64,000 nucleotides of DNA from NCBI RefSeq assembly GCF_009914755.1, contig NC_060931.1; one strand, written 5' to 3'. The DNA is from the human T2T-CHM13v2.0 reference genome, Homo sapiens. Under the pieces are notes generated by a model, which saw only the letters and a list, made by a program, of their open reading frames with translations, searched no databases and was not told where the DNA came from. Shown here one piece after another: positions 27,692 through 57,324 of this stretch. The position numbers were made by a program, and so were the translations under genes. Positions within the stretch are counted from its first letter, which is position 1. Every line of letters begins with the position of its first letter.

Positions 27692-27824
27692 TAGCCAGGA
27701 TGGTCTTGATCTCCTGACCTTGTGATCTGCCCGCCTCAGCCTCCTAAAGTGCTGGGATTACAGGTGTGAGCCACCGAGCCTGGCTGATCTGTGTTTTTAA
27801 AAAAGGATTTCACAACTAGTTTAC

Positions 27825-27883
27825 CTGGTGTATTCGTTCTTGGCTGAGTAACTTCAGTGGTACTGTGAGTCAGAAGTTCTGGT
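27825..27883 (-). pseudogene. GTF2I-like exon 19 (59 nt)
   Basis: PELLTHSTTEVTQPRTNTP; AG/GT. Confidence 0.95.
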
Positions 27884-28694
27884 CTGTAGAAACAGAGTTG
27901 ATATTAGTAATAAAGCATTTAGAAGCAACTCACAGGCCTTTCTCACACAGCTGTTCATTGCCAATTAGTTATAAATATGGTTCATCCTGCCTTCATTTTA
28001 TAGTGAAAAAAAAATCATTTTGGTGACGAGTTTATTTTGAAAATGGCAATTTTCAGATATTCGGGTGAGACCTTCAAAATCATCCTATATTTAAGATAAA
28101 CAGGCGAAAGTCACTTTTCCCCCAAACCAGCTCAATTCTGTTTCTGAATCTTAGATGAACTGTCCCACAGCACAGCCAGAAGCAGCTCGCTGTAGCATCT
28201 TAAACGTTTCCTATCCCTTATAACTCAGTCCCAACAAACACACAGAGGCATGACCCCAATCAGTAAGGAAGGTTTACCCTTCCACATCCCGTCAATGAGT
28301 GGAGAGAGGCCTTCTGTTCCTAACCCCGCACCCAAACTAACCATTGTGTTATCCTTCAAAATCAAGCCAGAATTACCTTTCTAAAGGGCGGATCCACATT
28401 ATTTTCAGAGGCATCTGCCTCGAGACCACTTCGTGACTGCCTCTGTGTTCGTAGGATCTCAGGCCTTCCTCCACTTGCCCACCCAAGTCGATCCATGCAA
28501 CCCCACCACGCCCACGTGGCAGTCCTCACTCCACACACGGTGGGTGAGTTCTGTGGATACGCAGGCATATTTGCCACCTCCTCCCCCTACTCATATGATT
28601 TCCTTCACTTGAAACACCTTCCATCTCTTCTGGATGCACAAGTGACCGAGCTAGGTGTGCCATCCTTGCCTTCTCCCTTAAAAACGCTCAATAA

Positions 28695-28846
<152 letters not shown>

Positions 28847-29244
28847 TAGCTGGGACTACAGGCTCGCACCACCGCTTCCAGCTAATTTTTGTATTTTTAC
28901 TAGAGATGGGGCTTCATCATGTTGGCCAGGCTAGTCTTGAACTCCTGACCTCAAGTGATCCACCTGCCTTGGCCTCCCAAAGTGCTGCGATTACAGGCGT
29001 GAGCTGCCGCGCCCGGCCTTCAGTGCATTTTTCTTTGTATGAAGGCCCCAAGGACAGTGTTCTTGTTAGACCCAATTTTGCACATCTGATGCTTATACTA
29101 ATATTTGTTCACTAAGTGAATCTAAATATTAATGCCTTCATTGTCAATAGAAATAAGTCATAAGGTAAACAAAAGGCCCTTCTTCATCAAATTAACCTCT
29201 TCTCAGGGAAGACACTGAAACTATTTCTACAGATTATCATCTTA

Positions 29245-29475
<231 letters not shown>

Positions 29476-30001
29476 TCAGATTTTAGTACAATCCAAAGAA
29501 AGGCACAGGTCAATTTTGTTTTACTTGAAAAAAACTCTTTCTAGAAACATATTTATTAACTATTGAATAGACTTAATACAGCAAAGACAAGTAGAGATGA
29601 CCGATCATCAACAGCCAGATTTGGGCAGATTTAAGTGTCCTGGTCCTAAGACAATCTTAATAGCTCTGAGATCTTTAAAAGATTAAAGTTTGTTTTTCAA
29701 TATCCTTAGGAAGAAAAGAGAGAAAGAAAATCATCATGGACAATAGAGGACACAACCTAAATACTATCTGGAAGCAGCCTTTTGCTACTAACTGTTCAGG
29801 ACCGTAATTACCCTCCTCCATCGGCTATGGCAAACTGGTAACACATTTCCGACTACACTTTCATCTGCGTGGCAACCAGATCAATGTTCTTTACCCCTTC
29901 AACCTCACGAGCATGCCATTTTAAAGGAAATAACTTTCCACAGATAATTCATAGAATGGGGGCCGGGCGCGGTGGCTCACGCCTATAATCCCAGCACTTT
30001 A

Positions 30002-30298
<297 letters not shown>

Positions 30299-30363
30299 TC
30301 ACTGTATTTACTTTCCTAAAATAAAACAACATTTAAAAAAATGTTACTCAGTAATACATTTTA

Positions 30364-30501
<138 letters not shown>

Positions 30502-30528
30502 TTAATGGGTTTAATAACTTGATTATTA

Positions 30529-30931
<403 letters not shown>

Positions 30932-31945
30932 TTATTTCTAAAACAATGCTGACACTGTACAAAAAGAGGAAGAACGAAACATTCATTAGAGCTAGGAAAA
31001 AGCAAAACTCAGTGTATTCAGGAACAGCTAGCAGGTAACACTTGCTACAGGAAGATTAGGGCTATGATCTTGCTGCAGTCCTTCTATCTTAGTAAATATC
31101 AACAGGGTGATTCCATTCTGTTTTATCCTCACTCCACTCCACTCCAGAGCAAAAGCAAGCAAGAAAATCAATTATATTTCTATTTATTTTAAAACACATC
31201 TAACAGGCTGGGCGCGGTGGCTCATGCCTGTAATCCTAGCACTCTGGGAGGCCGAGGTGGGCAGATCACCTGAGGTCAGCAGTTTGAGATCAGCCTGGCC
31301 AACATAGTGAAACCCTGTCTCTACGAAAAATACAAAAATTAGCTGGGCATGGTGGCAGGCACCTGTAATCCCAGCTACAGGGAGGCTGAGGCAGGAGAAT
31401 TGCTTGAACCCAGGAGGCGGGAGGTTGCAGTGAGCGGAGATCGCACCACTGCACTCCAGCCTGGGCAACAGAGCAAGACTCCCTCTCAAAAAACAAAACA
31501 AAACAAAACAAAATACATCTAACAATTAAGAGATGATATAAATGGCTCCATGCTCTAAAAGGAAACCTTCTTATGTCCTGCATATCATGGACATTCAATG
31601 AATGCTTGTTCCATTGACTCGTGTAGACTTCAATAATAAACTGTTCAATGCATTATGCCAGATAAATCTTGCATCAAAAGTAGAACAAATATTGTTCTTT
31701 TACTTCTGTCTACCCATAAATGCAATATTTATAAGTATTTACAATGGGTTAATAAAAAGAAGATGCGTTTATTCTTCTAGAAATTATTAGAATTTTGACA
31801 ACATGAATTCTCCTGTAATGGCACATAATTAATAGTTAGAGACATATTATTTCATGTGGAAGGTAACATAAAGAAGAAATCAATGTTAAGCGTGAAATAA
31901 TTATTGCACATAATCTTCTGATCTGCCTCGAGATTGAAGACCTAC

Positions 31946-32004
31946 CTCCTGAAGCTGGCTTATCAAGCTGTAAATCTTCACGTGTTGAACTCAGAAGCTC
32001 ATGT
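31946..32004 (-). pseudogene. GTF2I-like exon 16 (59 nt)
   Basis: cag|ACATGAG...GGAG|gtaggt; HELLSSTREDLQLDKPASG. Confidence 0.95.
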
Positions 32005-32118
32005 CTGAAAGGTGAGAATAAATACTCAATAATCACTAGGTAATATTCAGCAAACTAATAACGACTAGTACATATTTAACATTTAGTCAGTAAGGCTGGT
32101 TTTGAAAAGAAAAGATAA

Positions 32119-32388
<270 letters not shown>

Positions 32389-32708
32389 TGATCCAGCCGC
32401 CTTGGCCTCCCAAAGTGCTGGGATTACAGGTGTGAGCCACTACACCCAGCCCACAACTAAATCTTAATTTGAGGTTTCTACAGAGTAAAAAGCAAACTAA
32501 TAATTGCAAGTTGTCTCATAAGGTGCTTCATGGAGCATGTATCCTCACAAGTAAAGAGGTAACTTTGCAACCCACAGGTCTTTGAAGCATATTACAAAAA
32601 TCTTAAATGGGATCCTTTAATGTCATATTGCATTCAAGACTATCTTCCTCTGCACATCTATAAAAACAATCATATATTCCCACGCATGCTTTAAAAATCT
32701 CAGGCCTA

Positions 32709-32972
<264 letters not shown>

Positions 32973-33271
32973 TCAGGCCTAAAAACAAGGCGTGGATTCT
33001 ATGTTCTTTAGCAAAAGTAGCAGAAAATTGTGAAAGAAAATGTGAGTTGCATGCCAATCCAGTGCGGGCACTGTTCATGCTTCGAATGCCAACACTGCAT
33101 GACTGATGCAATGCTGGACCCAGATAAATTAAAAAGTGCAAGATAAAAATACATAAAATAACTCAAACTTCATCACATAGAACCCTAGTGGTGAATGAAT
33201 ATTGGTCAACAATAAAAAAGACGTATTACTCAGAAAAGAGACAAGAGTTCAACAGGAATCCAAGAGTCTTA

Positions 33272-33456
<185 letters not shown>

Positions 33457-33517
33457 CTATAAGGACAAAAAGAGAAAGAGATATCATTTAAACACAATTT
33501 GTAGAAAAGAATAATAA

Positions 33518-33883
<366 letters not shown>

Positions 33884-34024
33884 TGAAGCACTTTACTATC
33901 TTATCAATCTCCAGGATAGATCTTCAGTTCTCATGACCACAAAAGAGGATACTAAGACTCAGACAGGAGAAGAGACGTGGCAAGGCACTGTGTCCCCAGA
34001 GCCTATGATCTTACCACTAGGTCA

Positions 34025-34261
<237 letters not shown>

Positions 34262-34920
34262 TCAGGAGGCTCAGACAGGAGAATTGCTTGAACCTGGGAG
34301 GCAGAGGTTGCAGTGAGCCGAGATCGTGCCACTCCAGACTAGGCAACAAGAGCAAAACTCTATCTCAAAAAAAAAAAAAAAAACAAAAAAAAAACAAAAA
34401 ACAAAAAACAAAAAACCACGGGCAAAAAAGGTGTAAGCTATTAAAAACTGGGAGAAACACTAAGAGAACCTTAAGTAAACCACTAAAAATATGGAAAAGT
34501 TACTGAATTCATTAGCAAATTTACTCTAATTGTAGATTTTCATTGAGGGGTAGGTTATATTACTCATGATGAAGAAAAAATGCTCATTTTAAGTTTGTTA
34601 ACACAAATACCATCAATATGGTTTATTGCATTTAAATTTTCACTTATAGCAATTCAGTTAAAACTGCATATCATACAATTTTACCGCTTGCTAGTTAATG
34701 GCAAAGTAAATAGTCATCCAAATAAAAATGATAACAGATGATAATAAATATGATAAAAATAAAATGATTTTTATTTTAAATCATTTTAAATATTTTATAA
34801 AAAATAAAAATGATAACAAATTGTGAATTTCTTTGATCATTATATAAAGGTGGCTATAGGACAGAATAGTAAAAGGACAAAGAAGGAATTGAAATCTAGC
34901 ATCAACTCAGTTATACATCA

Positions 34921-35268
<348 letters not shown>

Positions 35269-35620
35269 TTAACAGAAACTATCAGTTAAAAAAATAATTT
35301 TTAATGAAACCCCCAAGATCCAGAGCTTTGTAATAAATATGTAAATAAATTCCCAAATATCCATGCTGGAAGTTTAAAAGAAATGTTAGCTGATAACTAC
35401 AGAAATACAACTTTTCCTTAGCTTTACTGTAATCTAGAAACAAAGACTGTTTCTAATATTTAGACAGACACTACTAAGGACCTTACAATGAGAGACGTGT
35501 AAGAAAGTGTGGCACGGTTCACTGGCAGCCCTGGGCTGGGCTTGTCCACATCACCCCCATGATGAACAGTAACGCCATTGTGTAAATGCTCATGAACAAA
35601 GTATTACAGGAATTTTCCTA

Positions 35621-35722
<102 letters not shown>

Positions 35723-36320
35723 TCATTAAGAAGTCCCTACCATCGGGGCAGCACTAGGGTCTTGGGATGACTGAACATACAATGACATATTTTCTACATT
35801 TTTACATCCCAACTGTCCATATCATTTTACTGCTTTCCAAGAACTTTCCCCTTTTTGGTGGTTCTTAGAATTAGTAGGTTGGTGCAAAAGTAACTGTGGC
35901 TTTTGCCATTACTTTTAATAGTCTCATGGGAGACTACACGAGAAGTTTTAACATTTAGCACCTCTTTTTAGCCTTTTAATTTCTGAAAAGCAGGAGGGCA
36001 GAAAAGATCAAGCAAATGAAACACGACAAAAGGGAGACCACGATAAAGGTCTCCAGGGGTCTTTTAGCAAACTTCCTAAAACATGTGTTAGTTGTGTGGA
36101 AATAAGACTTTACGGATATATAGTTGCAACTTAAAATGCTAAAGAACAGGCCAAGTGCAGTGGCTCATGCCTGTAATCCCAGCACTTTGGGAGGCTGAGG
36201 CATGCGGATCACCTGAGGTCAGGAGTTCGATTCCAGCCTGGCCAACATGGTGAAATCCCATCTCTACTAAAAATACAACAATTAGCTGGGCATGGTGGTG
36301 GGCGCCTGTAATCCCAGCTA

Positions 36321-36428
<108 letters not shown>

Positions 36429-36931
36429 TCAAAAAAATAATAATAAAAATTAAAAATAAAGAACAAAAACATATTTAAAAAGTACAAAAATTCAATTCAT
36501 ATCCAATCATTGTGACTATGACACAGTAGAATATTAAAGTACTATTTTCAAGATGTATACAAGCTTAATATTCCATTTATTCAAAATATGAATCATCAAC
36601 ATAATTTGCCGCTAATATCTCATTCAGTCCCTTGCTAGGATACATCATCCATTGAGAGCTCACAGATTAGCAGCTGCAGTAACACAGAGCAAAAAAAAAA
36701 AAAAAGAAAACCAAGAGGTGAAATAGTTCTGAAATAAAGATTTTAAAGCTAAGAGAAATAACTAAATTACTAAGTCTTTAGCACTAATCTTGAGCTGACT
36801 AATTAACATCAGACAAGACAATGTCCTATGCTTTGGTAAATCCAAACTATGTTTAAACAATGTCTGTAATGTAATTTTCAAAATGCTCCTGGCTTTCCAA
36901 AGATGAGATTATGATGCAGTAATAGACGCTA

Positions 36932-37177
<246 letters not shown>

Positions 37178-37589
37178 TTACAGTTACAGTCACCTCCTGG
37201 TCAATTCCCAACATTCAAAAGGTGAGCAGGGCTTTAAAGCTATTTTGAGTATCAATAGTTATTTCTGTATTGTGAGCTTTAGCAGGCTTTTTCCTTGTTA
37301 CATTTGAAATTTTCTTTGTTTGGGATGTGTTCAAGTGAATACTGCTTTTTCCTCTGTCTTTCTTCATTATTTTTTAGTTTGCTTCATTTGAATTGTCATT
37401 ATAAATTTCCCCTTCTCAAATAACTTTCAAATTGCCAAGAACTATATTGTTTTAAGACTTTCAAGAAAAAACTTTTAATAAAGACAGCCACCTAAAGTTA
37501 TAAAAGGGGATAGAGTACAGCTTAGATGGAAAAGATATTTAAGCTTATACAAAATTTAAGCATGCATAAGCAAGGGAAATTGGGTAAAT

Positions 37590-37760
37590 AGTTTTTTTTT
37601 GTTTTTTTGTTTTTGTTTTTGTTTTTGAGACAGAGAATTGTTCTGTTGCCCAGGCTGGAGTTCAGTGATGCAATCTTGGCTCACTGCAACCTCTACCTCC
37701 TAGGCTCAAGCAATCCTCCCACCTCAGCCTCCTGAGTAGTTGGGATCACAGGCAGGTGCC
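37590..37760 (-). mobile_element. Truncated hybrid Alu at the GTF2I/CASTOR fusion junction
   Basis: Right arm only, ending abruptly at 37760. Bases 37678-37756 are identical to 45849-45927. Confidence 0.85.
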
Positions 37761-39334
37761 CAGGCAACTCTCCCAGGCAACCATGGTTGGCAGGTCCCAA
37801 TTTCTACTGAGATCACCCCACGTAGGTCACATGGCGAGGGTCCCACACCCCAGCCTCACCACTTCCAACGAGCCAAACGCTTCCCATTTCCAGCCCGACG
37901 ATGGTACTAACTTCCCTGCCCCTCCTTGGAGATCCCCAACCCCAAATAACCTCTCCTGATCTCCAGGGTCTCTTGGTGACAATACCTGCCTGCCTGCCTT
38001 AGCTAAGGGGGTCAGTTGCTTCTATCAGTCTCAATGCCCCAGAAACTGAGCGAAAACCCAAGTATTCATGGCCTACTGAACGCAAAGTCTGAGTCTGACC
38101 CTGGTATTCTATTCCTTGGTTTTTAGAATGCCCCCAGACAAAGATGAGGGCTGAAGGCTCAGAAAGGCCGGGTCAGGCCAGGTGAGGTGGCTCACGTCTG
38201 AAATCACAGCACTTTTGGAGGCCGAGGCAGGAGGATCGTTTGAGGCCAGGAGTTTGAGGCCAGCCTGGGCAACAAAGTGAAACCCTGTCTCTACAAAATA
38301 TTGTAAAAATTAGCCAGGTGTGGTGGCACACACCTGCGGCCCCAGCTATTCAGGAGGCTGAGGCAGGAGGATCCCTTGAGTCCAGGAGCTGCAGTGAGCT
38401 ATGATTTTGCCACTGAACTCTGGCCTGGGTGACCGAGCGAGACCCTGTCTTCAAAAGAAAACAAGAAAGGTAGGGTGACCTGCCTGGGAATATGTGGTAG
38501 GAACAGCAGAGTGGAGAGAGAGCGCTTGATAAGGTGTCTTGTTGGGAGACATTCCCCACACCATGGTGCCATGGGAATCACATAAGCAGGTCAAGTGTGC
38601 CTCACTCAAGCACTCAGGAACCAAGCTTGCAGAGGGGGTCAGGGCAGGAAATGCACACGACTCCCAGCCAACCCCACACTCTGGACCTGGGGCACCTGCT
38701 AAGCACTTTCTCTGTAAGATCTCACTTCAACCTCCCGTGAACAGCCCTATAACGTGGGTGCTATCACCTTCTTCATTCTTCTACAGAAACTGACAAACGC
38801 AGTTAAACCAGGCTAATTTGGACTGACGGGCTGGGTGGGGACGTCATCAGAGAGAAGCTGCAGGAGGGAAATTGTAGACTAGAACAAAGTCTGAAGAGGG
38901 TGGAGAAAAGCACAGATTAAAAAAAAAAAAAAGAAGAAAGAAAGAAATGTAGCCAGGCATAGTGGCTCACGCCTGTAATCCCAGCACTTTGGGAGGCTGA
39001 GGCAGGTTGATCACCCAAGGTCAGGAGTTTGAGACCAGCCTGGCCAACATGGCGAAACCCTGTCTCTACTAAAAACGCCAAAATTAGCTGAGTGTGGTGG
39101 TGCACACCTGTAATCCCAGCTACTCGGGAGGCTGAGGCAGGAGAATCGCTCAAACCCAGGAGTCAAGAGTTTGCAGTGAGCTGAGATTGCGCCACTGCAC
39201 TCCAGCCTGGGCGGCAGGGTGAGACTCTGTCCCCGCCACCAAAAAAAAAAAAAAAAAATGCGTTTTACTGCCTGCAAGCTCGAGTTCTCCCTCCAGCACC
39301 CTACCCACCAGGGCTCCTCAGAGGCCTGGCTTGA

Positions 39335-39640
<306 letters not shown>

Positions 39641-40135
39641 TGATCCGCCTGCCTCAGCCTCCCAAAGTGCTGGGATTACAGGCGTGAGCCACCACGCCCA
39701 GCCCATACACCCCCTCATTCTTGACTGTGCTGCTCTAGTGGACGAAACAGCCCCAAAGCATTGCTCAGTTGGGAGGGGGTGGAGGGAGTCCAGCCTGGGT
39801 GTGTGCAAAGGAGTCACCCAGGAAATTCGCCGCGGGATCTGCCCTTACAGATGCACTCGCCTGGGGCCAAGCCCTCGGTGGCTGGGGCAGGTTACCCAGA
39901 GGCCCAGGGGCCAAATGCAGGAGCAAGTTCCCATCAGGAAAGGGGAAGAGTGAAGCAGAGATCCAGCTCCTGCATGCAGGGGAGTGGGCACGGGCAACCC
40001 CTTACCCCAGGGTCGTTCCCCAGCCTCACCTCTAAGGCAATGAAGGAGGGTAGAGTCTGAGGGCGCCCCTGACACCTCCACCTGTCCCCATCCCCTATCA
40101 GCGTTCCACATTCCAGTGCAGGCCCAAAATTCTAA

Positions 40136-40393
<258 letters not shown>

Positions 40394-42077
40394 TGAATTC
40401 CTGGCCTCAAGCGATCCTCTTGCCTCCACCTCCCAAAGTGCTGGGATTATAGGCGTGAGCCACCGCACCGGGCCTTGATTTCACATTTGAACTCTCCCAC
40501 ATTAAAAAAAAAATTATTAAAAAAAAAATAGGCCCGGCATGGTAGCTCATACTTGTAATCCCAGCACCTTAGGAGGCCAAGGTAGGAGAATTGTCTGAGC
40601 CCAGGAGTTCAAGACCAGCCTGGGGAACATGGTAAAACCCCAACAGGATGGATTTGATTCCTATACAAATTGAAGCTGCCCTGCCAAGGAGGGCCTGCCT
40701 GGAGGGGATGAGACCTTCGTCCTGAGGCCTCAGAGTCAGGGGATCAGGAGTCGGGGAGCTAGAATAGAAGCACACAGCCTGGGCACGGTGGCTCACGCCT
40801 GTAATCCCAGCACTTTGGGAGGCCGAGGCGGGTGGATCACCTGAGGTTAGGAGTTCGAGACCAGCCTGGCCAACATGGTGAAACCCTGACTCTACTGAAA
40901 ATATAAAAATTAGCCAGGCATGGTGGTGTACCCCTGTAGTCCCAGGGAGGACTGAGGCAGGAGAATCACTTGAACACGGGAGGCGGAGGTTGCAGTGAGC
41001 CAAGATTGCGCCATTGCACTCCAGCAGCCGGGATGACAGAGCAAGACTCTGTCTCAAAAAAAAAGAAAAAGAGGACAAGACATGGCGGTCAGCGTGCAGA
41101 GGAGGTGCGACTGGAGAAAGACTGGGGGTCACGTGGGCAGGACCTGGGTGGGCTGGGTGGGAGGGGGGCTGGATGTGGTGCTGTGCACCAGGGAGGGGAC
41201 ACAGAAGCAGGGGGCAGTCTGGGAGGAAGACTTGCAAGCACCATATGGGGACACAGTAGACACCCAGAGTGTCCAGGCACCCTGCAGGCAGAGCTGGTGT
41301 GCAGGGCAGAGAAGGGTGCCCAAGACATTGCTGGGAGCAGAGAAGTCACACCTTCCTCAAGGCCGGCTGGAGGACGCAACGGCTCTTTGTGTTCCAAGAA
41401 GCAGCTCTTACCAGGGGGCTGCCTGCCTGGTCCCCAGAGTTTCTCCAGTCTCCTTACTATAGACCCCTCCCCTCCTGCCAGCCTCCCGCATCCCCACAGC
41501 TCAGCCAATCTGAAACAAATAAACAGCTTCCCTTCCTCCAATAAAAACCAGCCATCCTGCAATTGTCAGATGTGCCCTTCCAGTGCTTCCAAAGCAGAAC
41601 AGACCATCCGTGCCATGGGGACAGAGGCCACCACTGCCACCTCGCTGAGGCTTGCATCAAGTAGAGGGCACCTCAAAACATCCATTGAATTTCTGTGAAT
41701 AATAGGTTCACTATGTAATCAACACCTCACTAAGTCCCTAACATAAAATTCCCCATTTAATTCTCACAACCACCCAAGATGTTGATAGTGTTATCTTCAG
41801 TTATTTTTTGGTAGAGATGGGGTCTCACTATGCTGTCCAGGCTGATCTCAAACTCCTGAGCTCAGGCAATCCTCCCGCTTCGACCTGCCAAAGTGATGGG
41901 ATTACAAGTGTGAGCCACCATGCCTCACCTTATCCCTATTTTAAAGATGAAACCAGGCCACGGTGTGGTGGCTTACGCCTATAATTCTACCACTTTGGAA
42001 GGTCAAGGCAGGAGAATTGTCTGAGCTCAAGAGTTTGAGACTGGCCTGGGCAACATAGTAAGACCCTGTTGCTACTA

Positions 42078-42365
<288 letters not shown>

Positions 42366-42859
42366 TTAACAGTGGAAAGGAGTGGAGGGCATAGGCGGCG
42401 AGGAGTTCGGAGTGGGGGGGCCAAGGCTGACCCCCAAACTGCTGTTGTCCACTGTGTGACTTGGGGGCAGACAGCTCCTTCCTGTAGAGCTGCTATGAGG
42501 GTGAATGATGGGAACTCCCAGCGGAGGCCTCATGCATAGTGGGTGTTCAAGAAGGATCTGCCATGGCCGGGAGCAGCGGCTCACGCGTATGATCTCAGCC
42601 CTTTGGGAGGCCGAGGCAGGCGAATCACCTGAGGTCAGGAGTTTGAGACCAGCCTGGCCTACATGGTGAAACCCCATCTCTACTAAAAAATACAAAAATT
42701 AGCTGGGTGTGGTGGCACATGCCTGTAGTCCCAGCTACTCGGGAGGCTGAGGCAGGAGGATCACTTGAACCCAGGTGGCAGAGGCTATACTGAGCCGAGA
42801 TTGCACTGCACTCCAGCCTGGGCAATAGAGTAAGACTCCGTCTCAAAAAAAAAAAAAAT

Positions 42860-43055
42860 ATGGGAACATCAGACACTGGGGATTCCAATAGAGGGGAGGT
42901 TGGGAAGGGGAGGAAGGTTAAAAAAATTACTTATCGGGTACAATGTTCACTATTTGGGTAATGGGCGTACTAGAGGCCCAGTCCCTACCAGTATGCCATA
43001 TATCCATGTAACAAACATCCACATGTACCTCTTGAATCTAAAATAAAATAAAATC
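42860..43055 (+). mobile_element. L1 (L1PB-like) 3' end
   Basis: gggtacaatgttcactatttgggtaatggg...catgtaacaaac...tgaatctaaaataaaa, typical of an L1PB/L1MA 3'UTR. Confidence 0.7.
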
Positions 43056-43087
43056 TTAAACATTAATTTTTATTTTTATTTTTTTGA

Positions 43088-43198
<111 letters not shown>

Positions 43199-43369
43199 TA
43201 AGACCACAGGTGCACGCCACTAAGCCCAGCTACATTTTGTATATTTTGTAGAGATGAGGTTTCACCATGTTGCCCAGGCTGGTCTCCGACTTGTGAGCTC
43301 AACCAATCTACTCACCTCAGCCTCCCAAAGTGCTGGGATTACAGGCATGAGCCACCACACCTGGCCTCA

Positions 43370-44173
<804 letters not shown>

Positions 44174-44259
44174 TTAAGCAGAGATGCAGAGATCTAGCTC
44201 AGAGGTTGGAGTATGTTCAATGTGTTATGGTGAGGGCAAGCCTGAGAATATGGCACCTA

Positions 44260-44451
<192 letters not shown>

Positions 44452-44695
44452 TCAGTGGGGCTGAGGCAGGGAGGATTGCTGGAGCCTGAGAAATCGAGGC
44501 TGGAGTGAGCTGAGATTGCATCACTGCACTCCAGCTTGGGTGACACAGTGAGACCCTGTCTCAAGAATTTTTTTCAGGCCAGGTGCGGTGGCTCATGCCT
44601 GTAATCCTAGCACTTCGGGAAGCTGAGGCGGGTAGATCACAAGGTCAGGAGATCGAGACCATCCTGGCTCACACAGTGAAACTCTGTCTCTACTA

Positions 44696-44884
<189 letters not shown>

Positions 44885-45076
44885 TCAATTTAGCACCGTA
44901 GATGGCCCACAGGGACCTTGGACACCCAGAATCCCACTGGCCCAGAACGGATGCAACTGGGCTGGTTTCTCATACTGCAGATCTGTTATAAGAGAAAACC
45001 TTTCCAGCCGTGTGCAGGCTCAGAAGAGAGACCAATTAAACCTTTTACAAGGTGTTTTTTTGTTTTTTTTTTTTGA

Positions 45077-45438
<362 letters not shown>

Positions 45439-45485
45439 TGAGGACAGAAGGGGATCAGGACCAGCCCTCTCATCCTGCACACTGA

Positions 45486-46100
<615 letters not shown>

Positions 46101-46164
46101 TAAAGTACTTCCTGCTATTCTAAAAAAAGTTTATTCCCATCTCAATGATAAATGGCAGGGTCAT

Positions 46165-46620
46165 TTCATTCCTTATCTGTTGCTACATAACAAATTACCC
46201 CAGATCTTAGTGGCTTGAAACAACAACAAACTTTTATTATCTCTCACAGTTCCTATGGGTTAGGAATTTAGGTGTGGCTGAACTTGGCAGTTCAAGGCAT
46301 TGGCTGGGGCTGCAATCCATTGGAAGGCTTGCCTGGGGCGGAAGGATCTGTTTTCAAAGCCCCGAGCTGCCGGTTGGGGGTGGGATGCCTCAGTTCCTCT
46401 CCATATGGGCCTCTCCATGGGGCTGCTTGGGTGTCTTCAGGCCTTGGGGGTTGGTTTCCTACAGAGCAAGGGATCTGGGAGAGAGGGAGCACCACGCAGA
46501 AGCCATCCTTTCGTGCCCTAGCCTCGGAAGTCTCATGGTATTGCTTTTACCATCTCCTAGTGACTTAGAAGAAAGTAGCCAAGACAGACATTTAAAGGAG
46601 AGGGGGGTGGAGGGATCCCA
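46165..46620. mobile_element. MaLR (MLT1-like) LTR
   Basis: ttgctacataacaaattaccccagatcttagtggcttgaaacaacaacaaacttttattatctctcacagtt, typical of an MLT1 terminus. Confidence 0.6.
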
Positions 46621-48703
46621 GGTTTTTTTTTTTTTTTTTTGACATGGAGTCTGGCTCTGTCGCCCAGGCTGGAATGCAGTGGCGCGATCTCGGCTTCACG
46701 CCATTCTCCTGCCTCAGCCTCCTGAGTAGCTGGGAATACAGGCGCCCGCCACCACGCCTGGCTAATTTTTCTATTTTTAGTAGAGACGGGGTTTCACCGT
46801 GTTAGCCAGGATGGTCTCGATCTCCTGACCTTACAGGCGTGAGCCACTGCGCCCAGCCAATCCTAGCTTTTAAAACCACCAGCAGCTGGGAGCAGTGGCT
46901 CATGCCTGTAATCCCAGCACTTTGGGAAACCAAGACGGGAGGATCACTTAAGGTCAGGAGTTTGAGACCGGCATGGACAACAGAGTGAGACCCCCTCTGT
47001 ACAAAAAATCTAAAAACTACCACGGTTGGCCAGGCGCAGTGCTCATGCCTGTAATCCCAGCACGTTGGGAGGCCAAGGCGCGCAGATCACTTGAGGTCAG
47101 GAGTTCAAGACCAGCCTGTCCAACCTGGGAAAACCCATCTAAATTAAAAATACAAAAAATTAGCTGAGCATGGTGGTGGTACCTGTAACCCCAGCTACTC
47201 AGGAGGCTGAGGCAGGAGCATCACTTCAACCCAGGAGGCAGAGGTTGCAGTGAGCCGAGATCGTGCCACTGCACTCCATCCTGGGCAACAGAGTGTAACT
47301 CCATCTCCAAAAACAAAAGCAAAACAAAACAAAACAAAACTACCATGGTTACCTAAAATAGGGCATGTGTTGGGAAGGGAGTAGACAGAGCCAGAGTGGA
47401 TAGACAGAAGACATCTGATCAAGAAAGATTCAGGCCGGGAGTGGTGGCTCACGCCTGTAATCCCAGCACTTTGGAAGGCCAAGGTGGGTGGATCACCTGA
47501 GGTCAGGAGTTCGAGACCACCCTGGCCAACAAGGCAAAACCCCGTCTCTATTAAAATACACAAAATTAGCCAGGCATGGTGGTGCACGCCTGTAATCCCA
47601 GCTACTCAGGAGGCTGAGGCACAAGAGTCACTTGAACCCAGGAAGCAGAGGTTGCAGTGAGCTGAGATCACGCCATTGCATTCCCGCTTGGGTGACAGAG
47701 TGAGACCCTGTCTCAAAAAACAAACAAAACCAACAAGGCAGAGATGTGGCCAGGGCTTCTGAAGGAATGCATGAAGTCCACCCAGCACCCACTCCAGTTG
47801 TGTCCCTCCATCCTCCCAGACTACCCCCTGCCCCTGCACTCCCAGCCATGCCCCCTGTGTGGGGCTCTGGTCCTCTCACCCTCTACCTTTGCTGGAGAAC
47901 ATACAGGACTCACGTCTTTTCCTCCCATGGGACAGAAACTCCTTTCGCGCTTCCTATCAGGCCCTGCCTACCGCAGGTATACACTGCGGGGTTTCTCAGT
48001 GAACAGAGCATACCAATTTGCACCCGCCACAGGACAGTGGCTTGTTCCCTGCAGACAACTTACTCTTTCAGCCTCCAGGCGTTTGCTCCTCCAGCCCAGA
48101 GGGATGGGGCAGCAATGAGCATTTGAGCCGCCCTAGAAGCAGGAGGCAGGAGGCAGGAAGATATCTGGATAGTTCAGGAAAGAGATGAGGAAAAAGGAAA
48201 AAGGCATAGGAAAAAGATTTGGGAGCTAGGGTTGAGCCAGCCCCTTTCTCTGGGCAGCAGCAGACTATGGCTGTCCTGAGTGGGCACACGCAAGGCTCTG
48301 GGGCTCACCCCGTACCCTCTTCACCTATACCCCTCCCCTGATCCATCTGTAGCCACCCACTCCTGTTCCCTGCTTGCTCATCTTGCTTTAACCCCAGCAC
48401 CTCCTGACATTTTCTCATGCCAGCCATCACCCCATTCTTGGCTCAGATGGTGCTGCCTCCTCTAGGAAGCCTTACTGGCTTGCAGCTCTGTGGTCCTAGA
48501 GCATTTTGGCTGCCCCTGCCAGAGGCCTGACACCTAAATGACAGGTGAGGTCCTTGGCTTAATTCTGCGAGAGCAGTGACAGCATCTCCACTTTCCAGAA
48601 TCAGGATGCGATTATGTGTGTGTGTAGTCTTCTAAGCCTGGGCTTTTCTGGCTCTGCCCTCACAAACTGGTGCTGGCCAGTGGCCCCAGGGCCTTCCCAG
48701 TTA

Positions 48704-49013
<310 letters not shown>

Positions 49014-49274
49014 TCATCAAGCCCTCACAACCACTTACGTTACAGGCATGATCATCATCTCTGTTTTACAGGTAAGAAACATAGCACAGAGAGGTCAAGC
49101 AACTTGCCCAAGGTCACACAGCCAGGATGAGCAGTGCTGGGATTCCAGCCCAGGTGTCCCAGGGCTCTAACTCCCTTGGGATAGCCTGTCTTTCCCTAAA
49201 CTGCAATTAGACAGTGGCCTCAGCCCAATGTGTTGCGAGGAATGAGGGCTCTGCATGGACTTTTTGCAATTTTA

Positions 49275-49768
<494 letters not shown>

Positions 49769-50087
49769 TTACTGCATACTTGCCTGTGTAGTTTTTGCCA
49801 ATCCAATGGACTTTCTAGAATGGAATTTAAAGATAACAGCATTTCATGGGCAAAAAGGAGAGTGCTGCTTGGCTGAGCATGGTGGCTCACACCTGTAATC
49901 TCAGCACTTTGGGGAGGCCAAGGCAGGTGGAGCGTCTGAGGTCAGGAGTTCGAGACCAGCCTGGCCAACATGTTGAAACCCCATCTCTACTAAAAATACA
50001 AAAATTAGCCAGGCATGGTAGCTCACACCTGTAATCCTAGCACTTTGGGAGGCCGAGGTGAGAGGATTGCTTGAGGCCAGGAGTTCA

Positions 50088-50995
<908 letters not shown>

Positions 50996-51117
50996 TGGCT
51001 GGGCGCAGTGGTTCACGCCCGTTATCTCAGCACTCTCGGAGGCCAAGGAGGGAGGATTACCTGAGGTCAGGAGTTCGAGACCAGCCTGAGTAACACGGCT
51101 AAACCCCGTCTCTACTA

Positions 51118-51324
<207 letters not shown>

Positions 51325-51440
51325 TTACATTTCTTCTTCTTTTTTTATTATTTTTCAGAGACAGGGTCTCTGTCGCTCAGGCTGGAGTGCAGTGGCACCA
51401 TCATAGCTCACTGCAGCCTCAAATTCCCGGGCTCAAGTGA

Positions 51441-51788
<348 letters not shown>

Positions 51789-52906
51789 TGAAGGCTGGAG
51801 GCACGCTAGGGTGTGGCTGGAAGCTTCGAGGTGAGGCTGGAGAGACAAGGTGAGGTGGGCCACAGAGGGCCCTCAGCTAGGTCACAGAGCCTCAGGGTTA
51901 CCACAGAGGACAAGGGAAGCTCATCGGACAGACCTACCCAGGGTCTTGCCTTCTGGCTTTATGCTGAGAATAAGTAAGCACATTCCTCGCCTAGTCCAGC
52001 CACACCCAGATGCTCCTCCAAAGGTCCTGGGCAGAGGCCTGGTTCAGCAGACCCGGGACAGGGTCGCTGGGCTCTGCTTCTAGCAGGTGTGATCCTGCCT
52101 TCTACAACGACATATCTTCCAGCCCCAGGGCACTCCTATGAGACTCTGGCAAATACTTGGGTTGAAATCTGGGTCACTCTGATGGTCAGAAATCCATCAA
52201 ACAGACGTTTACTAAGTGCCTACAAAGCAGGGTGCTACACGCAGCGGAGACGGGACCTAGTTCAAATCCCAATTCTGTTTCTTTCCAGCTGTGCGACCTT
52301 GCCATTGTACTTCTCCAAAGCTAGTGTCTTCACCGCTCTGCAAAATATGGCAAAGTCAACGGTAGCTCTCATCACCACTGGTAGGTACTGTGGTGATGTG
52401 GTGGGAAGGGGTGGATCAAATCATGCACAAAAAACTTGAAGGTTGATAATCTAGGTAAGAGAAAAAGACAAGCCAATAACATGTTGTTATCGGCAAAAGT
52501 TGAGAAATACGCAAGGTGCCCGGAAGAAAGTATCTGAGATAGGCTCTAAGGCTCTAACGAAGTAGAATGTCTAAGCAGGTCGCGGTGGCTCTCGCCTGTA
52601 ATCCCAGCATTTTGGGAGGCCGAGGTGGGTGGATCACTTGAGGTCAGGAGTTCGACACCAGCCTGGCAAACATGGCGAAACCCAGTCTTTACTAAACATA
52701 CAAAAATTTACCGGGCGTGGTGGCGCACGCCTGTGATCCCAGCTTCTTGGGGTGGAGGTTGCAGGGAGCTGAGAACACACCACTGCACTCCAGCCTGGGT
52801 GACAGAGCAAGACTCCGTTTCAAAAAAAAAAGGAAGTAACCGTCTAGATGGGAGTGATAAGGACCAAGTATCCCTGGGAGAAGAAAACAGCTCTGGTAGC
52901 AGATCA

Positions 52907-53074
<168 letters not shown>

Positions 53075-53554
53075 CTAAGCCTTTCAGAACACTGTGCTGT
53101 AGACAGAAGGGCTGGACATAACCATTCAATGGGGGCATCTCTTGCAACCTGCAATAGCAAAATCTCAGAGCTTGTGCCAGAAAGGTGCAGATTGGCACAT
53201 TTAAATCCCGGATCTATCACTTCTTGCCTGACCTTGAGCAAGTCACTTAATCTTTGAACCCCAGCTTCCTGGTTTGCAAAGCAGGTTTAATACCTAATAC
53301 ACAGAACGTACCTGGGGGTCCTGGGGTCTAGATCCTCTCTTCCAACTAGTTAACTCCAAATGTGAGCCACTGGCTTTCCTACTTCAAAAGCCCTAAGGGC
53401 CAATGGCTCATGCCTGTAAGCTCATGCCTGTAACAGTTTAAATGTTATGTCCGCACGCACCTCTGACAGGCTGAGGTGGGAGGATCATGTGAGGCCAGGA
53501 GTTCAAGGCCAGCCCGGGCAACACAGTGAGACCCCCATCGCTACAAGAAATTTA

Positions 53555-53746
<192 letters not shown>

Positions 53747-54201
53747 CTACAGGTAGGCACCCGGCGTTCTAGGTACCCTGCTAGACCAGCCCTTCCCTGA
53801 CTCCACCCTGCTGTAGAATGATGGCCTCTTTCTTTCTCTTCCACCAGGCTCTAGGGCTTGGCAGAGGAAGGGGCAAGGTATCTCTGCATCCCTTGGACCC
53901 AGCCACACCCCAACACAGAGTGAATGTTTCCTAATGCCATTCCCTTTCCACAACTCCACTCCACGAGAGAGAAGTGACTTAAGCCTGCTAAGGAGCGGAG
54001 GGAAAAGTTCAGGAAGGTTTCAGCATGCTATCATTAGCGCTATCATTAGCTCTTGAGGACTGAATAGGAATTTACTAGGGGTGGGTGGGGGAGAATATTC
54101 CAGGCAAATGGAAGAGAGGTAGATACAAAGGCACAGAGGTATGTAGGGAACAATAAGGGAAATTGTGTATTTGCTGGGGGAGGGCTAAAGATGAGGATTC
54201 A

Positions 54202-54378
<177 letters not shown>

Positions 54379-54538
54379 TCAGGATCTAGATCCCAAAGGG
54401 CCTCGAATGCCATGTCAATGATTTGATGCTATAGAGTGACTGACAAAACTGTAAACGGGCCGGGCGCGGTGGCTCACGCCTGTAATCCCAGCACTTTGGG
54501 AGGTCGAGGCCAGTGGATCACCTGAGGTCGGGAGTTCA

Positions 54539-54721
<183 letters not shown>

Positions 54722-56373
54722 TCAGTCTCAAAAAAAAAAAAAAAAAAAAAAGTAAACAGGTGGCACAGGGACCCTCAGGGCATGCTGTGCTAGTCTGGGC
54801 TAAACTTAGGTTTTGGAGAGGGAGGTGACAGAGCTATGGGTCACCACCTAGGGGCAGGTATTGCAGGAACAATCTAAGGGGTTCTACCTGGATGGCTGAT
54901 TATTGAAAACAGTTTAAATGCTATGTCGGCAGGCTGCAACCCATTAACACTTGCTAAAAAGCCATTTCCCACAATCGTCCCACACCATCCACACAGCAGT
55001 TCTGTGTCCATGAGGGGGCCAAATAGTATTATCTCTATTTTACAGACGGACGAAGTGTGAGCCAGAGGAGACAGACTTCGCCTCAGCCAGGCAGGCAGGG
55101 GGCTGTGGTCACACATGACCTGAAGCCATGATCTGGGCTCAGAGTGCATGGGGTGGCAGGTCCTCAGGCATTTGACGAATGTTCCGCACCTTCTGAGGCC
55201 GGACCATGGAAACACAGCGATGGCCTTTGGCCTCTGAGTCATCTTGAAACTGGACTAGTCAGCTGGGTCACCTGGGCCTGGGACAGGACAGGCTGCTTTC
55301 TGCAGGAGGGAGGAAGGGGGACCCACTGAGGGACAGGTCTTCTTGTGTTCCCAGAGGCCAGCAGGGGGGCTTGACCCCAGAGACACGCCTATCCATGAGT
55401 ACCCAAAGGGGATCCTGAGTTGGGGGCTGGAAGAAGGCCAGTCTCTCCACCAAGGGAAAGGGGCTGAGGGACCCTGCCCTTTGCTGCCTTTCTAAGAAGC
55501 CCCCAAATGCCCCCCGCTTCCAGCACCCAGGCCCTGTGCACAGCCGCAGCCTGAGTCATCATTCTCATTTGAATGGTGGCCGAGAAATCAGCCAGGGGGC
55601 TGCCCAGGGCTGAGGGCCAAGGCTAGGAAAAACAAGGCTGTTCTGTTACCTCCAAGCTTTGGAACGTCAAGCCCGGCTAGGGAGTGGGGGGCAGAGGGCA
55701 GGCAGAAGCAGGATCTGAAGGTGTCAACAGCCAGAGGGGGCTTTGTGTGAGGGGTGGGGGCGCGGTTCAGAATCCGAGCTGTTGGCTTTTGTTTTCAAAT
55801 GACCTGTTTAATCATTACCCTTTGCAATCAACGGGGAGCACAGGCTCCGTGGCAGAGGCTTGGCGACTATTTCAAATCTCCATCCCCTACTGAGCAGCCG
55901 GAGACGAAAGTAAACAAGATGCCACCGGCAGGTCTGGCTCCATCTCGCAAACAATAGCCGGACTGAGCACCCGGCTCAGACACACACATCAAAGTGAGAT
56001 TTCCAAGCAAGAACTTTTCACAGGCAGATAACAGGCTGGAATTATTTCCCTGTGTCCCTAGAGCTCAGTGCCAAAGGGGGCAGCCTAAGGGGGCTGTCAT
56101 TTTCACGCTAACCTTGACCCGAAAAGTATTCATTCATTTTGCAGTGAGGGAGAGCCACCACCGCCCCAAACCGCGAAAAACCAACCAGTAACAACTTTAT
56201 CATTCCTTTTTAACAGTCACAATGGTGGGCAAATGAGACTTAAGTTACAGCAGCTAGCTGGCACTCACACTCCCCTCGGCTCAGGCTCCTTAAACAACAA
56301 CAACAAAACCCTAATGCAAGCACCCACCGGGGCTCACAATGTCAAACCCTCACCTGGCATAGGGAAAATCCAA

Positions 56374-56376
<3 letters not shown>

Positions 56377-56450
<74 letters not shown>

Positions 56451-56460
56451 TGTGTGTGTG
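56377..56460 (+). repeat. Compound (GA)n(GT)n microsatellite
   Basis: About 22 GA followed by about 20 GT with one interruption. Confidence 0.97.
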
Positions 56461-57211
56461 ATTCCCTCTTTTACCTTCCAAGGCCTTCAACTATTTTTCC
56501 CCCTGCAGCATCCAAGCCCAGCCTCAAGGCAGATGCATAAACATGCCTGCTCCTCCCCTTCTACGGTTGGGCAAAACACCCCCCCACCCCCTTTCCAGGA
56601 CCCCAAGGAGAAAGAATCACGTCCTCTGCAGCCCCTCCCTGGCCCTCGCCCACCCCCCGTTTCCCCCCCGCAATTCCAGGCCGTCCGCAGCAAGCCTCGT
56701 AGGCACCTTGAGATAAACACCCACTAATGATTTTATGATTTTCTGCTCTGGGTAACCGCGCTCAGCGGAATCCCTCCCCCCGCCGTGGCGACGGGGCCGG
56801 CCCAACCGAGGGATGGGGGGATGGGGGCGTTTGTTTTTTCCACGGCCTCGTCCCCACACCTGTTTTTCATTCATTCATTCGTTCGTTCCTTCATCCATTC
56901 ACGGATCCGTCACTGCAGCCGCCCCAGCCCCCCGGATTTCGGGGAGGGGGCTGCGATGGGGGAGGGGGTGGGAGATGGGGGGACGACAGAGGTGGGGGGT
57001 GGCGCACCGGGGGGTGGAAGGTTGCGAGGGGTCCGGGAGCCAGGACCCTGCGGCTCCGGCTTTGTCAGACGCGAGCGAAGCGGCGGCGGGGGCGGGGCGG
57101 GGGCGCTCCCGGGGCCCGAAGTTGTTTTCCGAGGCGCGGCGGCGAGGACAGCGGCCCGGGGTGCGCCCCCTTTGTCTGTCCCCGGCCGGCGCCGCGTCCC
57201 CGCGCGCTTAC

Positions 57212-57324
57212 CTGGTCTTGGAGGACAGGAAGGCAAGTTTGATCAGGCCGTAGGTGAACAGCGGGATACTCTCCTTGGCGACGCTGGCAACTTGCAGCCG
57301 GTGCTCCAGGATGTGGAGTTCCAT
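57212..57324 (-). pseudogene. CASTOR2/CASTOR3(GATS)-type exon 1, coding part (113 nt), used as first exon of the chimera
   Basis: ATG at 57324 in strong context (ACGATGG) encodes MELHILEHRLQVASVAKESIPLFTYGLIKLAFLSSKT(R), the CASTOR2 N-terminus. Donor AG|GTAAGC is phase 2. CASTOR exon 2 (CKFFSLTETPEDY) was not found downstream. Confidence 0.93.

What the first reader, a model, noticed from the sequence alone, without database searches (positions are those of the whole stretch)
37590..37790. Fusion junction is a hybrid Alu containing a 79-bp perfect copy of an Alu 8.17 kb away (template-switch scar)
Seen: 37678-37756 is identical over 79/79 bases to 45849-45927, including non-consensus bases (cctctacctcctaggctc, gtagttgggatcacaggcagg). 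After one CpG-type mismatch 3 more bases match; to the left of the block the two Alus differ. The Alu then stops dead at 37760 and is followed by a 10-bp microduplication (cccaggcaac at 37759-37768 and 37772-37781). Composition changes here from AT-rich (GTF2I intron 12) to GC-rich. Inference: the chimera arose by a multi-step FoSTeS/MMBIR-like event. There was an Alu-Alu switch from GTF2I intron 12 into the Alu at 45.85 kb, about 80 bp were copied, and a second microhomology jump followed. This is more than a simple Alu-Alu crossover.
Basis: partly seen in the sequence, partly recalled or inferred. Interest (0 to 1): 0.8.

Follow-up and report, generated by a model that had tools for sequence, protein, structure and literature searches.

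The report
Three-part Alu scar at GTF2IP1 fusion
The point where a copy of the GTF2I gene was fused to a copy of the CASTOR2 gene near the Williams syndrome region is a three-piece join carrying a short patch copied from a repeat 8 kb away, the kind of scar left when DNA copying jumps between templates.

Summary

**Observation**
- Window 37678-37756 equals 45849-45927 at 79 of 79 bases.
- With up to 3 mismatches, the whole T2T genome holds only 6 matches. Two are the fusion junctions (GTF2IP1 here, GTF2IP4). Four are paralogous copies of one CASTOR-intron Alu.

**Parents**
- GTF2I intron identity runs to 37693.
- CASTOR2 and CASTOR3 homology starts exactly at 37765, in non-Alu sequence.

**Inside the hybrid Alu**
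- 10 of 10 diagnostic sites at 37634-37677 are GTF2I-type.
- 13 of 13 at 37694-37756 are CASTOR-Alu-type.
- The switch lies in 16 shared bases, 37678-37693.
- The patch ends at 37760. Four orphan bases (CAGG) follow and create an exact 10-nt repeat of CASTOR sequence 13 nt downstream.

**Reading**
One complex event with serial template switching is most likely (about 0.7). FoSTeS/MMBIR cannot be told apart from break repair with templated synthesis. Later gene conversion is disfavoured because only 4 nt of homology lie to the right of the tract.

**Status**
The chimeric gene and Alus at block edges are already published. I found no description of this fine structure, but the key 2005 paper was unavailable. 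It is a new member of a known kind, of moderate interest.

The parts
27755..37693 (-). GTF2I-derived arm of GTF2IP1. This is the part I checked. The hub table puts GTF2I-type exons from 5248 to 37140.
   Evidence: window 27755-37754 aligns colinearly to chr7:75940459-75930460 (minus) at 99.19% over 10,023 columns; identity from 37500 to 37693, broken only by a 2-nt poly-T indel.
37592..37626 (-). T-rich tail (the A-tail on the minus strand) of the GTF2I intron Alu. Its length differs among GTF2I, GTF2IP1 and GTF2IP4.
37627..37677 (-). GTF2I-type part of the hybrid Alu.
   Evidence: 10 of 10 sites where the two parental Alus differ carry the GTF2I base.
37678..37693 (.). First switch interval. 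These 16 nt are identical in the GTF2I Alu and the CASTOR-intron Alu (microhomology inside 82.8% homeology).
37694..37756 (-). Patch that unambiguously derives from the CASTOR-intron Alu.
   Evidence: 13 of 13 diagnostic sites carry the CASTOR-Alu base; identical to 45865-45927.
37757..37760 (.). Last 4 nt of the Alu patch (TGCC). 37757 is T, where both parental Alus have C in a CpG.
   Evidence: The T is shared with the GTF2IP4 junction.
37761..37764 (.). Four orphan bases (CAGG) found in neither parent at this place. They are probably templated filler.
   Evidence: CAGG is the only one of 256 fillers that gives the 10-nt repeat.
37759..37781 (.). Exact 10-nt direct repeat CCCAGGCAAC (37759-37768 and 37772-37781). 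The second copy is parental CASTOR sequence.
37765..64000 (-). CASTOR2-derived arm: part of the intron, the first coding exon and upstream sequence. It runs on past the window end.
   Evidence: three colinear blocks to chr7:76186815-76160644 (minus), 99.03-99.25%; 94.5% to the CASTOR3 locus.
45798..46085 (-). Full-length Alu of the CASTOR-type intron, the donor lineage of the patch. The 79-mer is 45849-45927.
57208..57324 (-). ORF inside GTF2IP1 exon 1 that encodes the CASTOR N-terminus (38 aa). It shows what the 5' partner is.
   Evidence: ORF. Pfam Castor1_N, 35.9 bits against a cut-off of 26.5, E = 6.8e-9.

Best explanation
The join between the GTF2I copy and the CASTOR2 copy was made in one complex event with serial template switches. 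It underlies the chimeric pseudogenes GTF2IP1 and GTF2IP4.

A DNA end being extended on the GTF2I intron-12 Alu paired with a homeologous Alu in the first CASTOR2 intron. The two Alus are 83% alike and share 16 identical bases at the switch. Then 67-83 nt were copied from that Alu. The end came off and was joined to unique CASTOR2 intron sequence about 8.1 kb away. That last join went through a tiny templated insertion, CAGG, copied from 13 nt away, with 2-nt and 4-nt microhomologies. The same steps can be read in the reverse order.

Shown: the three-part anatomy, the identity of both parents and of the donor Alu lineage, and that the scar predates the GTF2IP1/GTF2IP4 split.

Inferred: that all joins were made in one event, the direction of synthesis, and whether it was replicative (FoSTeS/MMBIR at a collapsed fork) or break repair (aborted synthesis-dependent strand annealing followed by polymerase-theta-type end joining).
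For: 1. Clean chimera. 10 of 10 diagnostic sites at 37634-37677 are GTF2I-type and 13 of 13 at 37694-37756 are CASTOR-Alu-type. GTF2I identity holds to 37693.
2. The patch sequence is specific to one Alu lineage. There are 6 genome-wide matches at up to 3 mismatches: 2 junctions and 4 paralogous CASTOR-intron Alus.
3. The donor lies in cis, in the same orientation, 8.0-8.2 kb from the CASTOR breakpoint in all four loci.
4. The CASTOR breakpoint at 37765 is in unique sequence, and the donor Alu is still intact. One crossover therefore cannot give this structure.
5. The patch ends 4 nt after its last diagnostic base and abuts a 4-nt filler that makes an exact 10-nt repeat 13 nt away. Only 1 of 256 fillers does so, and only about 1% of 50-bp bins of the window hold such a repeat.
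6. Both arms differ from their parents by about the same amount: 99.19% for GTF2I and 99.03-99.25% for CASTOR2. The other junction copy is 99.67% identical with the same scar.
7. Chimeric Alus with microhomology, and microhomeology with small insertions, are described as signatures of template switching in passages of PMC6071635 and PMC6902434.
Against: - No intermediate or outgroup sequence was available, so simultaneity of the two joins is not shown.
- One base of the patch (37757) differs from every donor copy. It could be a later CpG transition or a copying error, and it says nothing either way.
- The 8 bases 37757-37764 have a second possible template: TGCCCAGGC at 37647-37655 in the GTF2I Alu, a 9-nt match. 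A random 8-mer is found somewhere in the 6 kb of parental sequence searched 8% of the time. The micro-insertion reading is therefore suggestive rather than proven.
- No strong secondary structure lies at the CASTOR2 breakpoint (DNA fold z = 0.34).
- Genome search counts are stated by the tool to be lower bounds for repeats.
Confidence: 0.7

Rival explanations
1. Simple end joining first, gene conversion later. The GTF2I Alu, broken at the position of 37760, was joined directly to CASTOR2 at 37765 with a CAGG filler. Afterwards a short conversion tract from the nearby CASTOR-intron Alu overwrote 37694-37756.
For: The donor is in cis and 8.17 kb away, and the tract of 63-83 nt is short. That short Alu-Alu conversion tracts of about this length are known is recalled, not checked here. 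The patch equals the local donor at 79 of 79 bases.
Against: Only 4 nt (3 matching) of Alu homology lie to the right of the last converted site, before unrelated sequence starts. Conversion normally needs homology on both sides of the tract. The tract would have to end by coincidence at the junction. The patch, including its private T at 37757, is already present in both GTF2IP copies, so it is as old as anything that can be dated here.
Confidence: 0.12
2. Two separate rearrangements. First an ordinary Alu-Alu recombination between the GTF2I Alu and the CASTOR2 Alu made a full hybrid Alu followed by 45928 onward. Then a second breakage inside that hybrid Alu, 67-83 nt from the first join, was joined to an intact CASTOR2 copy at 37765.
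For: The first join has the form of a classical chimeric Alu with 16-nt microhomology. The region is known for repeated rearrangement (PMC5035501 passage).
Against: This needs two independent breaks within about 80 nt of each other. No copy of the presumed intermediate exists in the genome. Only two junction copies were found, and both have the full three-part structure.
Confidence: 0.08
3. An inherited structure. A now-lost CASTOR paralogue already had a truncated Alu copy next to 37765, and a plain Alu-Alu exchange with GTF2I used it.
For: No call supports it directly. CASTOR-type sequence is multi-copy on chromosome 7.
Against: Both surviving parental loci, CASTOR2 and the older CASTOR3 (94.5% to the window), read unique sequence, not Alu, immediately before the breakpoint. 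Only four copies of the unique flank exist.
Confidence: 0.05
4. Chance resemblance between two Alus, or an assembly artefact.
For: Alus are abundant, and one search lists dozens of Alu matches at 79-93%.
Against: There is no other match within 3 mismatches in 3.1 Gb. The switch in parental type is sharp, 10 of 10 then 13 of 13. The same scar sits in two separately assembled loci 2 Mb apart.
Confidence: 0.01

Closest known systems
Alu/Alu-mediated rearrangement (AAMR) with a chimeric Alu, as in pathogenic CNVs (PMC6071635; passages read)
   Same: The two Alus are in direct orientation, and the hybrid Alu has a stretch of perfect microhomology at the switch (16 nt here; that paper says most are under 25 bp). 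The partners come from different Alu types and are only 83% alike, which that paper argues favours template switching over NAHR.
   Different: AAMR leaves a relatively complete chimeric Alu whose flanks are those of the two partner Alus. Here the chimeric Alu is cut off after 67-83 nt of the second partner. The sequence that follows lies 8.1 kb from that partner, which itself survives intact.
Complex rearrangements by FoSTeS/MMBIR with microhomeology and small insertions at join-points (PMC6902434; passages read)
   Same: There are several join-points within one junction. A short templated segment comes from nearby sequence in cis. Microhomology is embedded in microhomeology at one join, and a small insertion sits at the other.
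   Different: Those are recent pathogenic copy-number gains with known parents and sometimes de novo status. This is a fixed evolutionary scar at the edge of a segmental duplication, so simultaneity cannot be shown.
Templated insertions of polymerase-theta-mediated end joining (recalled from general knowledge; no paper read here)
   Same: A 4-nt insert plus flanking microhomologies (2 nt and 4 nt) reproduces a 10-mer lying 13 nt away on the joined end.
   Different: The enzyme cannot be inferred from sequence, and the 67-83-nt Alu patch is longer than typical inserts of that kind.
Alus at the edges of the 7q11.23 duplicated blocks (Antonell et al. 2005, known to me only through a passage of PMC5035501, and my recollection of its abstract)
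   Same: Same region and the same general statement: an Alu sits at the junction of large duplicated blocks and probably helped to create it.
   Different: That statement, as quoted, does not describe a three-part junction with a patch from a second Alu and a non-Alu partner breakpoint. I could not read the paper, so it may hold more.
GTF2IP1/GTF2IP4 as GATSL-GTF2I chimeric pseudogenes (PMC6169893, passage; PMC13122177, passages and held supplement)
   Same: Both papers state that the promoter and first exon come from a duplicate of the neighbouring GATSL gene (the former name of the CASTOR2 family, as I recall it) and the rest from GTF2I. My searches agree.
   Different: [quoted passage not shown] Its main text and held supplement have 0 occurrences of 'Alu', and its main text has 0 of 'microhomology'. 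At base level the fusion is not simple.

Membership tests
Alu/Alu-mediated rearrangement (AAMR) | Both breakpoints lie in Alus of the same orientation, with microhomology at the switch | tested here: met
   This holds for the first join only. Both Alus are antisense on the + strand, with 16 identical bases at 37678-37693.
[quoted passage not shown]
   The Alu stops at 37760. The flank is CASTOR2 sequence that lies 8.1 kb from the partner Alu, and the partner is intact at 45798-46085.
FoSTeS/MMBIR-type complex rearrangement | Two or more join-points in one junction, with a short segment templated from nearby sequence | tested here: met
   The order is GTF2I, then a 67-83-nt patch from the Alu 8.17 kb away, then a 4-nt filler, then CASTOR2.
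FoSTeS/MMBIR-type complex rearrangement | Microhomology or microhomeology at the join-points | tested here: met
   The first join has 16 nt inside 82.8% homeology. The second has 2-nt and 4-nt microhomologies around the filler, under the templated reading.
FoSTeS/MMBIR-type complex rearrangement | All joins were formed in a single replicative event | not testable with these tools
   Only one human assembly is held. No ape genomes or intermediates were available (one search says the genome has no relatives here).
FoSTeS/MMBIR-type complex rearrangement | Point mutations clustered near the join (error-prone synthesis) | tested here: inconclusive
   There is one change, 37757 C to T, in the 83-nt patch. 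It is at a CpG, so ordinary decay explains it equally well.
Interlocus (Alu-Alu) gene conversion | The converted tract is flanked by homology on both sides | tested here: not met
   The left flank is homologous. The right flank has only 4 nt (3 matching) before unrelated sequence.
NAHR between large duplicated blocks | Long, highly identical substrates on both sides of the exchange | tested here: not met
   The parents share only the Alu, at 82.8% identity. The flanks are unrelated.

The most novel reading that the evidence does not exclude
This scar is the founding join of the fused B-A block that now flanks the Williams-Beuren deletion region.

The join connects chr7:76,186,815 to chr7:75,930,521-536 head to tail. 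In today's medial arrangement that is the junction expected of a 256-kb direct duplication.

Read along the gene strand, the junction shows three successive backward switches of growing reach and growing homology: 13 nt (4-nt microhomology), 8.0 kb (2 nt) and 256 kb (16 nt within Alu homeology). That is the pattern predicted for a low-processivity MMBIR polymerase.

If so, a disease-predisposing low-copy repeat was seeded by replicative template switching, not by Alu-mediated transposition or NAHR, and the base-level fossil of that event survives.
Probability: 0.35. Interest if true: 0.55.

Novelty: new member of a known kind. Interest (0 to 1): 0.4.

Why it matters
The low-copy repeats that flank 7q11.23 cause the recurrent Williams-Beuren deletion and its reciprocal duplication. 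How those repeats first formed has been argued mostly from Alus lying at block edges.

This junction gives a base-pair record for one founding join. One breakpoint is in an Alu and one is in unique sequence. They are bridged by a patch from a second Alu 8 kb away, with a small templated filler. That is the signature seen in present-day pathogenic complex rearrangements, and it argues against a plain Alu-Alu crossover for this join.

It also corrects the published label of a 'simple' intron fusion for GTF2IP1/GTF2IP4.

The result is a well-documented example, not a new principle. The patch itself is intronic in a transcribed pseudogene, and I see no reason to expect a function.

Tried and rejected
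- Secondary structure at the CASTOR2 breakpoint: a DNA fold of 121 nt around it is no better than shuffles (z = 0.34; 124 of 200 shuffles fold at least as well). An 11-nt-arm imperfect palindrome beside it (I4) is therefore only noted.
- Alternative templates for the orphan bases: a systematic search of 1 kb around each of the three parental sites, both strands, gave four matches of 9-10 nt that overlap them. A random 8-mer is found there 8% of the time, so only the longest and nearest match (10 nt, 13 nt away) is used. The 9-nt match in the GTF2I Alu is kept as an alternative, and the two minus-strand 9-mers are dropped as probable chance.
- Literature: Antonell et al. 2005 is not held by DOI or PMC id. 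Searches found no base-level description of this junction. PMC8535890 concerns other GTF2I pseudogenes and was irrelevant. PMC7450558 only cites Antonell.
- Not attempted: Alu subfamily assignment. No repeat library is on hand and consensus sequences from memory are not usable. My impression that the donor is an older J-type Alu and the GTF2I Alu an S-type is recall only.
- Not attempted: dating in years.

Full report
**Observation.** Window 37678-37756 and 45849-45927 are identical at 79 of 79 bases, and the 79-mer occurs nowhere else in the window on either strand. One mismatch follows (37757 T against C), then three more matching bases, and then all similarity ends. The 10-nt repeat CCCAGGCAAC at 37759-37768 and 37772-37781 is exact and maximal. 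GC content is 0.33-0.43 in the 500-bp windows starting at 36000-37250. It is 0.50-0.58 in those starting at 37750-41250, except one at 0.60.

**The parents.** The window's whole assembly could be searched. A 341-nt query across the junction found only two places that span it: the window itself, and chr7:74.37 Mb on the other strand. The second is the other GTF2I pseudogene copy, 99.67% identical over 3,308 columns.
- The left part alone matches chr7:75.93 Mb. Extended, window 27755-37754 aligns colinearly to chr7:75940459-75930460 at 99.19%.
- The right part alone matches chr7:76.187 Mb and chr7:101.496 Mb. Extended, window 37765-64000 aligns in three colinear blocks to chr7:76186815-76160644 at 99.03-99.25%, and at 94.5% to the 101.5-Mb locus.
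- The right-hand partner is a CASTOR-family gene. Exons matching Pfam ACT_7 lie downstream of both loci and at the chromosome 22 paralogue. GTF2IP1 exon 1 holds a 38-aa ORF that matches Pfam Castor1_N above its cut-off.
- The names CASTOR2 and CASTOR3 for the two loci, and 'intron 12' of GTF2I, rest on my recollection of gene maps and on the exon count in the hub table. They agree with the published statement that the promoter and first exon of GTF2IP1 and GTF2IP4 come from a duplicate of the adjacent GATSL2 (PMC6169893, passage).

**Anatomy at base level.** The parental GTF2I intron carries a full-length Alu. It is identical to the window up to 37693, apart from a 2-nt poly-T indel, and then differs densely.
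- I compared the junction with the GTF2I Alu and the CASTOR-intron Alu at every position where those two differ. 10 of 10 sites at 37634-37677 carry the GTF2I base, and 13 of 13 sites at 37694-37756 carry the CASTOR-Alu base.
- The two parental Alus are 82.8% alike over 134 ungapped positions. The switch falls in the 16 bases 37678-37693 that they share. The copied stretch is therefore 67-83 nt long.
- Position 37757 is T where both parents have C in a CpG.
- The Alu ends at 37760. In both CASTOR loci the sequence just before the point of homology is unique, non-Alu sequence, and homology with the window starts exactly at 37765. Four bases, CAGG at 37761-37764, belong to neither parent.
- The other junction copy has the same structure, including the T and the filler.

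**Specificity of the patch.** With up to 3 mismatches the 79-mer has six matches in 3.1 Gb, and none for the reversed control.
- Four are exact: the two junctions, and the Alu about 8.17 kb from each junction.
- One, with 1 mismatch, is in the CASTOR2 intron.
- One, with 2 mismatches, is in the CASTOR3 intron.

In each locus the Alu lies 8.0-8.2 kb from the breakpoint position, in the same orientation. The CASTOR3 copy shows that the Alu carried this sequence before the fusion, so the transfer went from that Alu lineage into the junction. Unrelated Alus reach only 83-89% over the Alu part of the query. The tool warns that repeat counts are lower bounds.

**The second join.** The filler CAGG, the CC before it and the CAAC after it reproduce a 10-mer of parental CASTOR sequence 13 nt downstream.
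- Of 256 possible fillers only this one does so, and only 13 of 1280 50-bp bins of the window begin a comparable repeat.
- This is the pattern of a templated micro-insertion: prime on CC, copy a few bases, come off, and re-anneal on CAAC.
- A second possible template exists. TGCCCAGGC at 37647-37655 in the GTF2I Alu would account for 37757-37765, including the T.
- Matches of 9 nt are not rare in the 6 kb searched, where a random 8-mer is found 8% of the time. I prefer the nearer, longer match and hold the other open.

**Mechanism.** A single Alu-Alu crossover cannot give this structure. The partner breakpoint is not in an Alu, and the donor Alu survives with 8.1 kb of intron between it and the join.
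- The simplest account is one event in which a growing DNA end changed template at least twice. The order is GTF2I Alu, then CASTOR2-intron Alu, then unique CASTOR2 intron, with a micro-slip at the last join. The order can equally be read in reverse.
- Whether the end came from a collapsed replication fork (FoSTeS/MMBIR) or from a double-strand break (aborted strand invasion followed by microhomology end joining) cannot be read from the sequence.
- A later short gene conversion is the main rival. It is disfavoured because only 4 nt of homology lie to the right of the last converted site.
- Two independent rearrangements within 80 nt of each other, or a lost paralogue with a pre-existing truncated Alu, are possible. 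Nothing in the genome supports either.

**Geometry (inference).** The GTF2I breakpoint is chr7:75,930,521-75,930,536 and the CASTOR2 breakpoint is chr7:76,186,815. They lie 256,294 bp apart, both arms on the same strand relative to the window.
- The join is thus head to tail, as in a direct duplication of that interval, provided the ancestral arrangement resembled today's medial one.
- The fused unit is now inverted relative to both parents, so this rests on an assumption I could not test.

**What is known.**
- The chimeric nature of GTF2IP1 and GTF2IP4 is published (PMC6169893, passage; PMC13122177, passages).
[quoted passage not shown] Its main text has 0 occurrences of 'Alu', 'breakpoint' or 'microhomology'. 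The supplement held as text has 0 occurrences of 'Alu'. Supplementary figures in PDF form were not visible to me.
- Alus at the junctions of the 7q11.23 blocks were reported by Antonell et al. 2005, according to a passage of PMC5035501. That paper is not held and may describe this edge in more detail.
- Seven full-text searches found no description of the three-part junction.
- Chimeric Alus with microhomology, microhomeology and small insertions as marks of template switching are well established for pathogenic rearrangements (PMC6071635 and PMC6902434, passages).

**Verdict.** This is a new, cleanly resolved example of a known kind of scar, at a medically relevant duplication boundary. It is of moderate interest rather than the high interest first assigned. 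It becomes more valuable if ape assemblies show that the scar is the founding join of the block fusion.

Noticed in passing
window 45690-45797: A purine-only microsatellite of about 110 nt, (GGGGGA)n then (GGA)n, sits where the tail of the donor Alu should be. In the CASTOR2 copy it is mostly (GGA)n, and in the CASTOR3 copy (TGA)n. The repeat has therefore changed motif among paralogues, and it interrupts the BLAST alignment at 45723-45765. Such tracts can form non-B DNA, but I did not test any link to the rearrangement.
   Followed up: partly
window 37773-37794: An imperfect palindrome with 11-nt arms and no spacer (perfect 12-nt core at 37778-37789) lies 8 nt inside the CASTOR2 arm, overlapping the second copy of the 10-nt repeat. 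The parental stretch does not fold better than shuffles (z = 0.34).
   Followed up: yes
window 57208-57324, minus strand: GTF2IP1 exon 1 keeps an ATG and a 38-aa ORF that matches the CASTOR N-terminal domain (Pfam Castor1_N, 35.9 bits). The pseudogene transcript therefore starts with a CASTOR2-type coding exon.
   Followed up: yes
window 46033-46066: The donor Alu carries an internal tandem duplication of about 17 nt near its end. The CASTOR3 copy has one more unit in the alignment.
   Followed up: no
window 37592-37626, and L002 / L003: The T-rich tail of the GTF2I Alu differs in length among GTF2I (2 nt shorter), GTF2IP1 and GTF2IP4 (one extra TTTTTG unit). This is ordinary microsatellite drift.
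   Followed up: no
window 37789-37798 against 37751-37760: The last 10 nt of the Alu patch match CASTOR2 sequence 38 nt downstream at 9 of 10 positions (D4). With the T at 37757 the shared run is 7 nt. This may be chance or a further microhomeology, and it was not resolved.
   Followed up: partly
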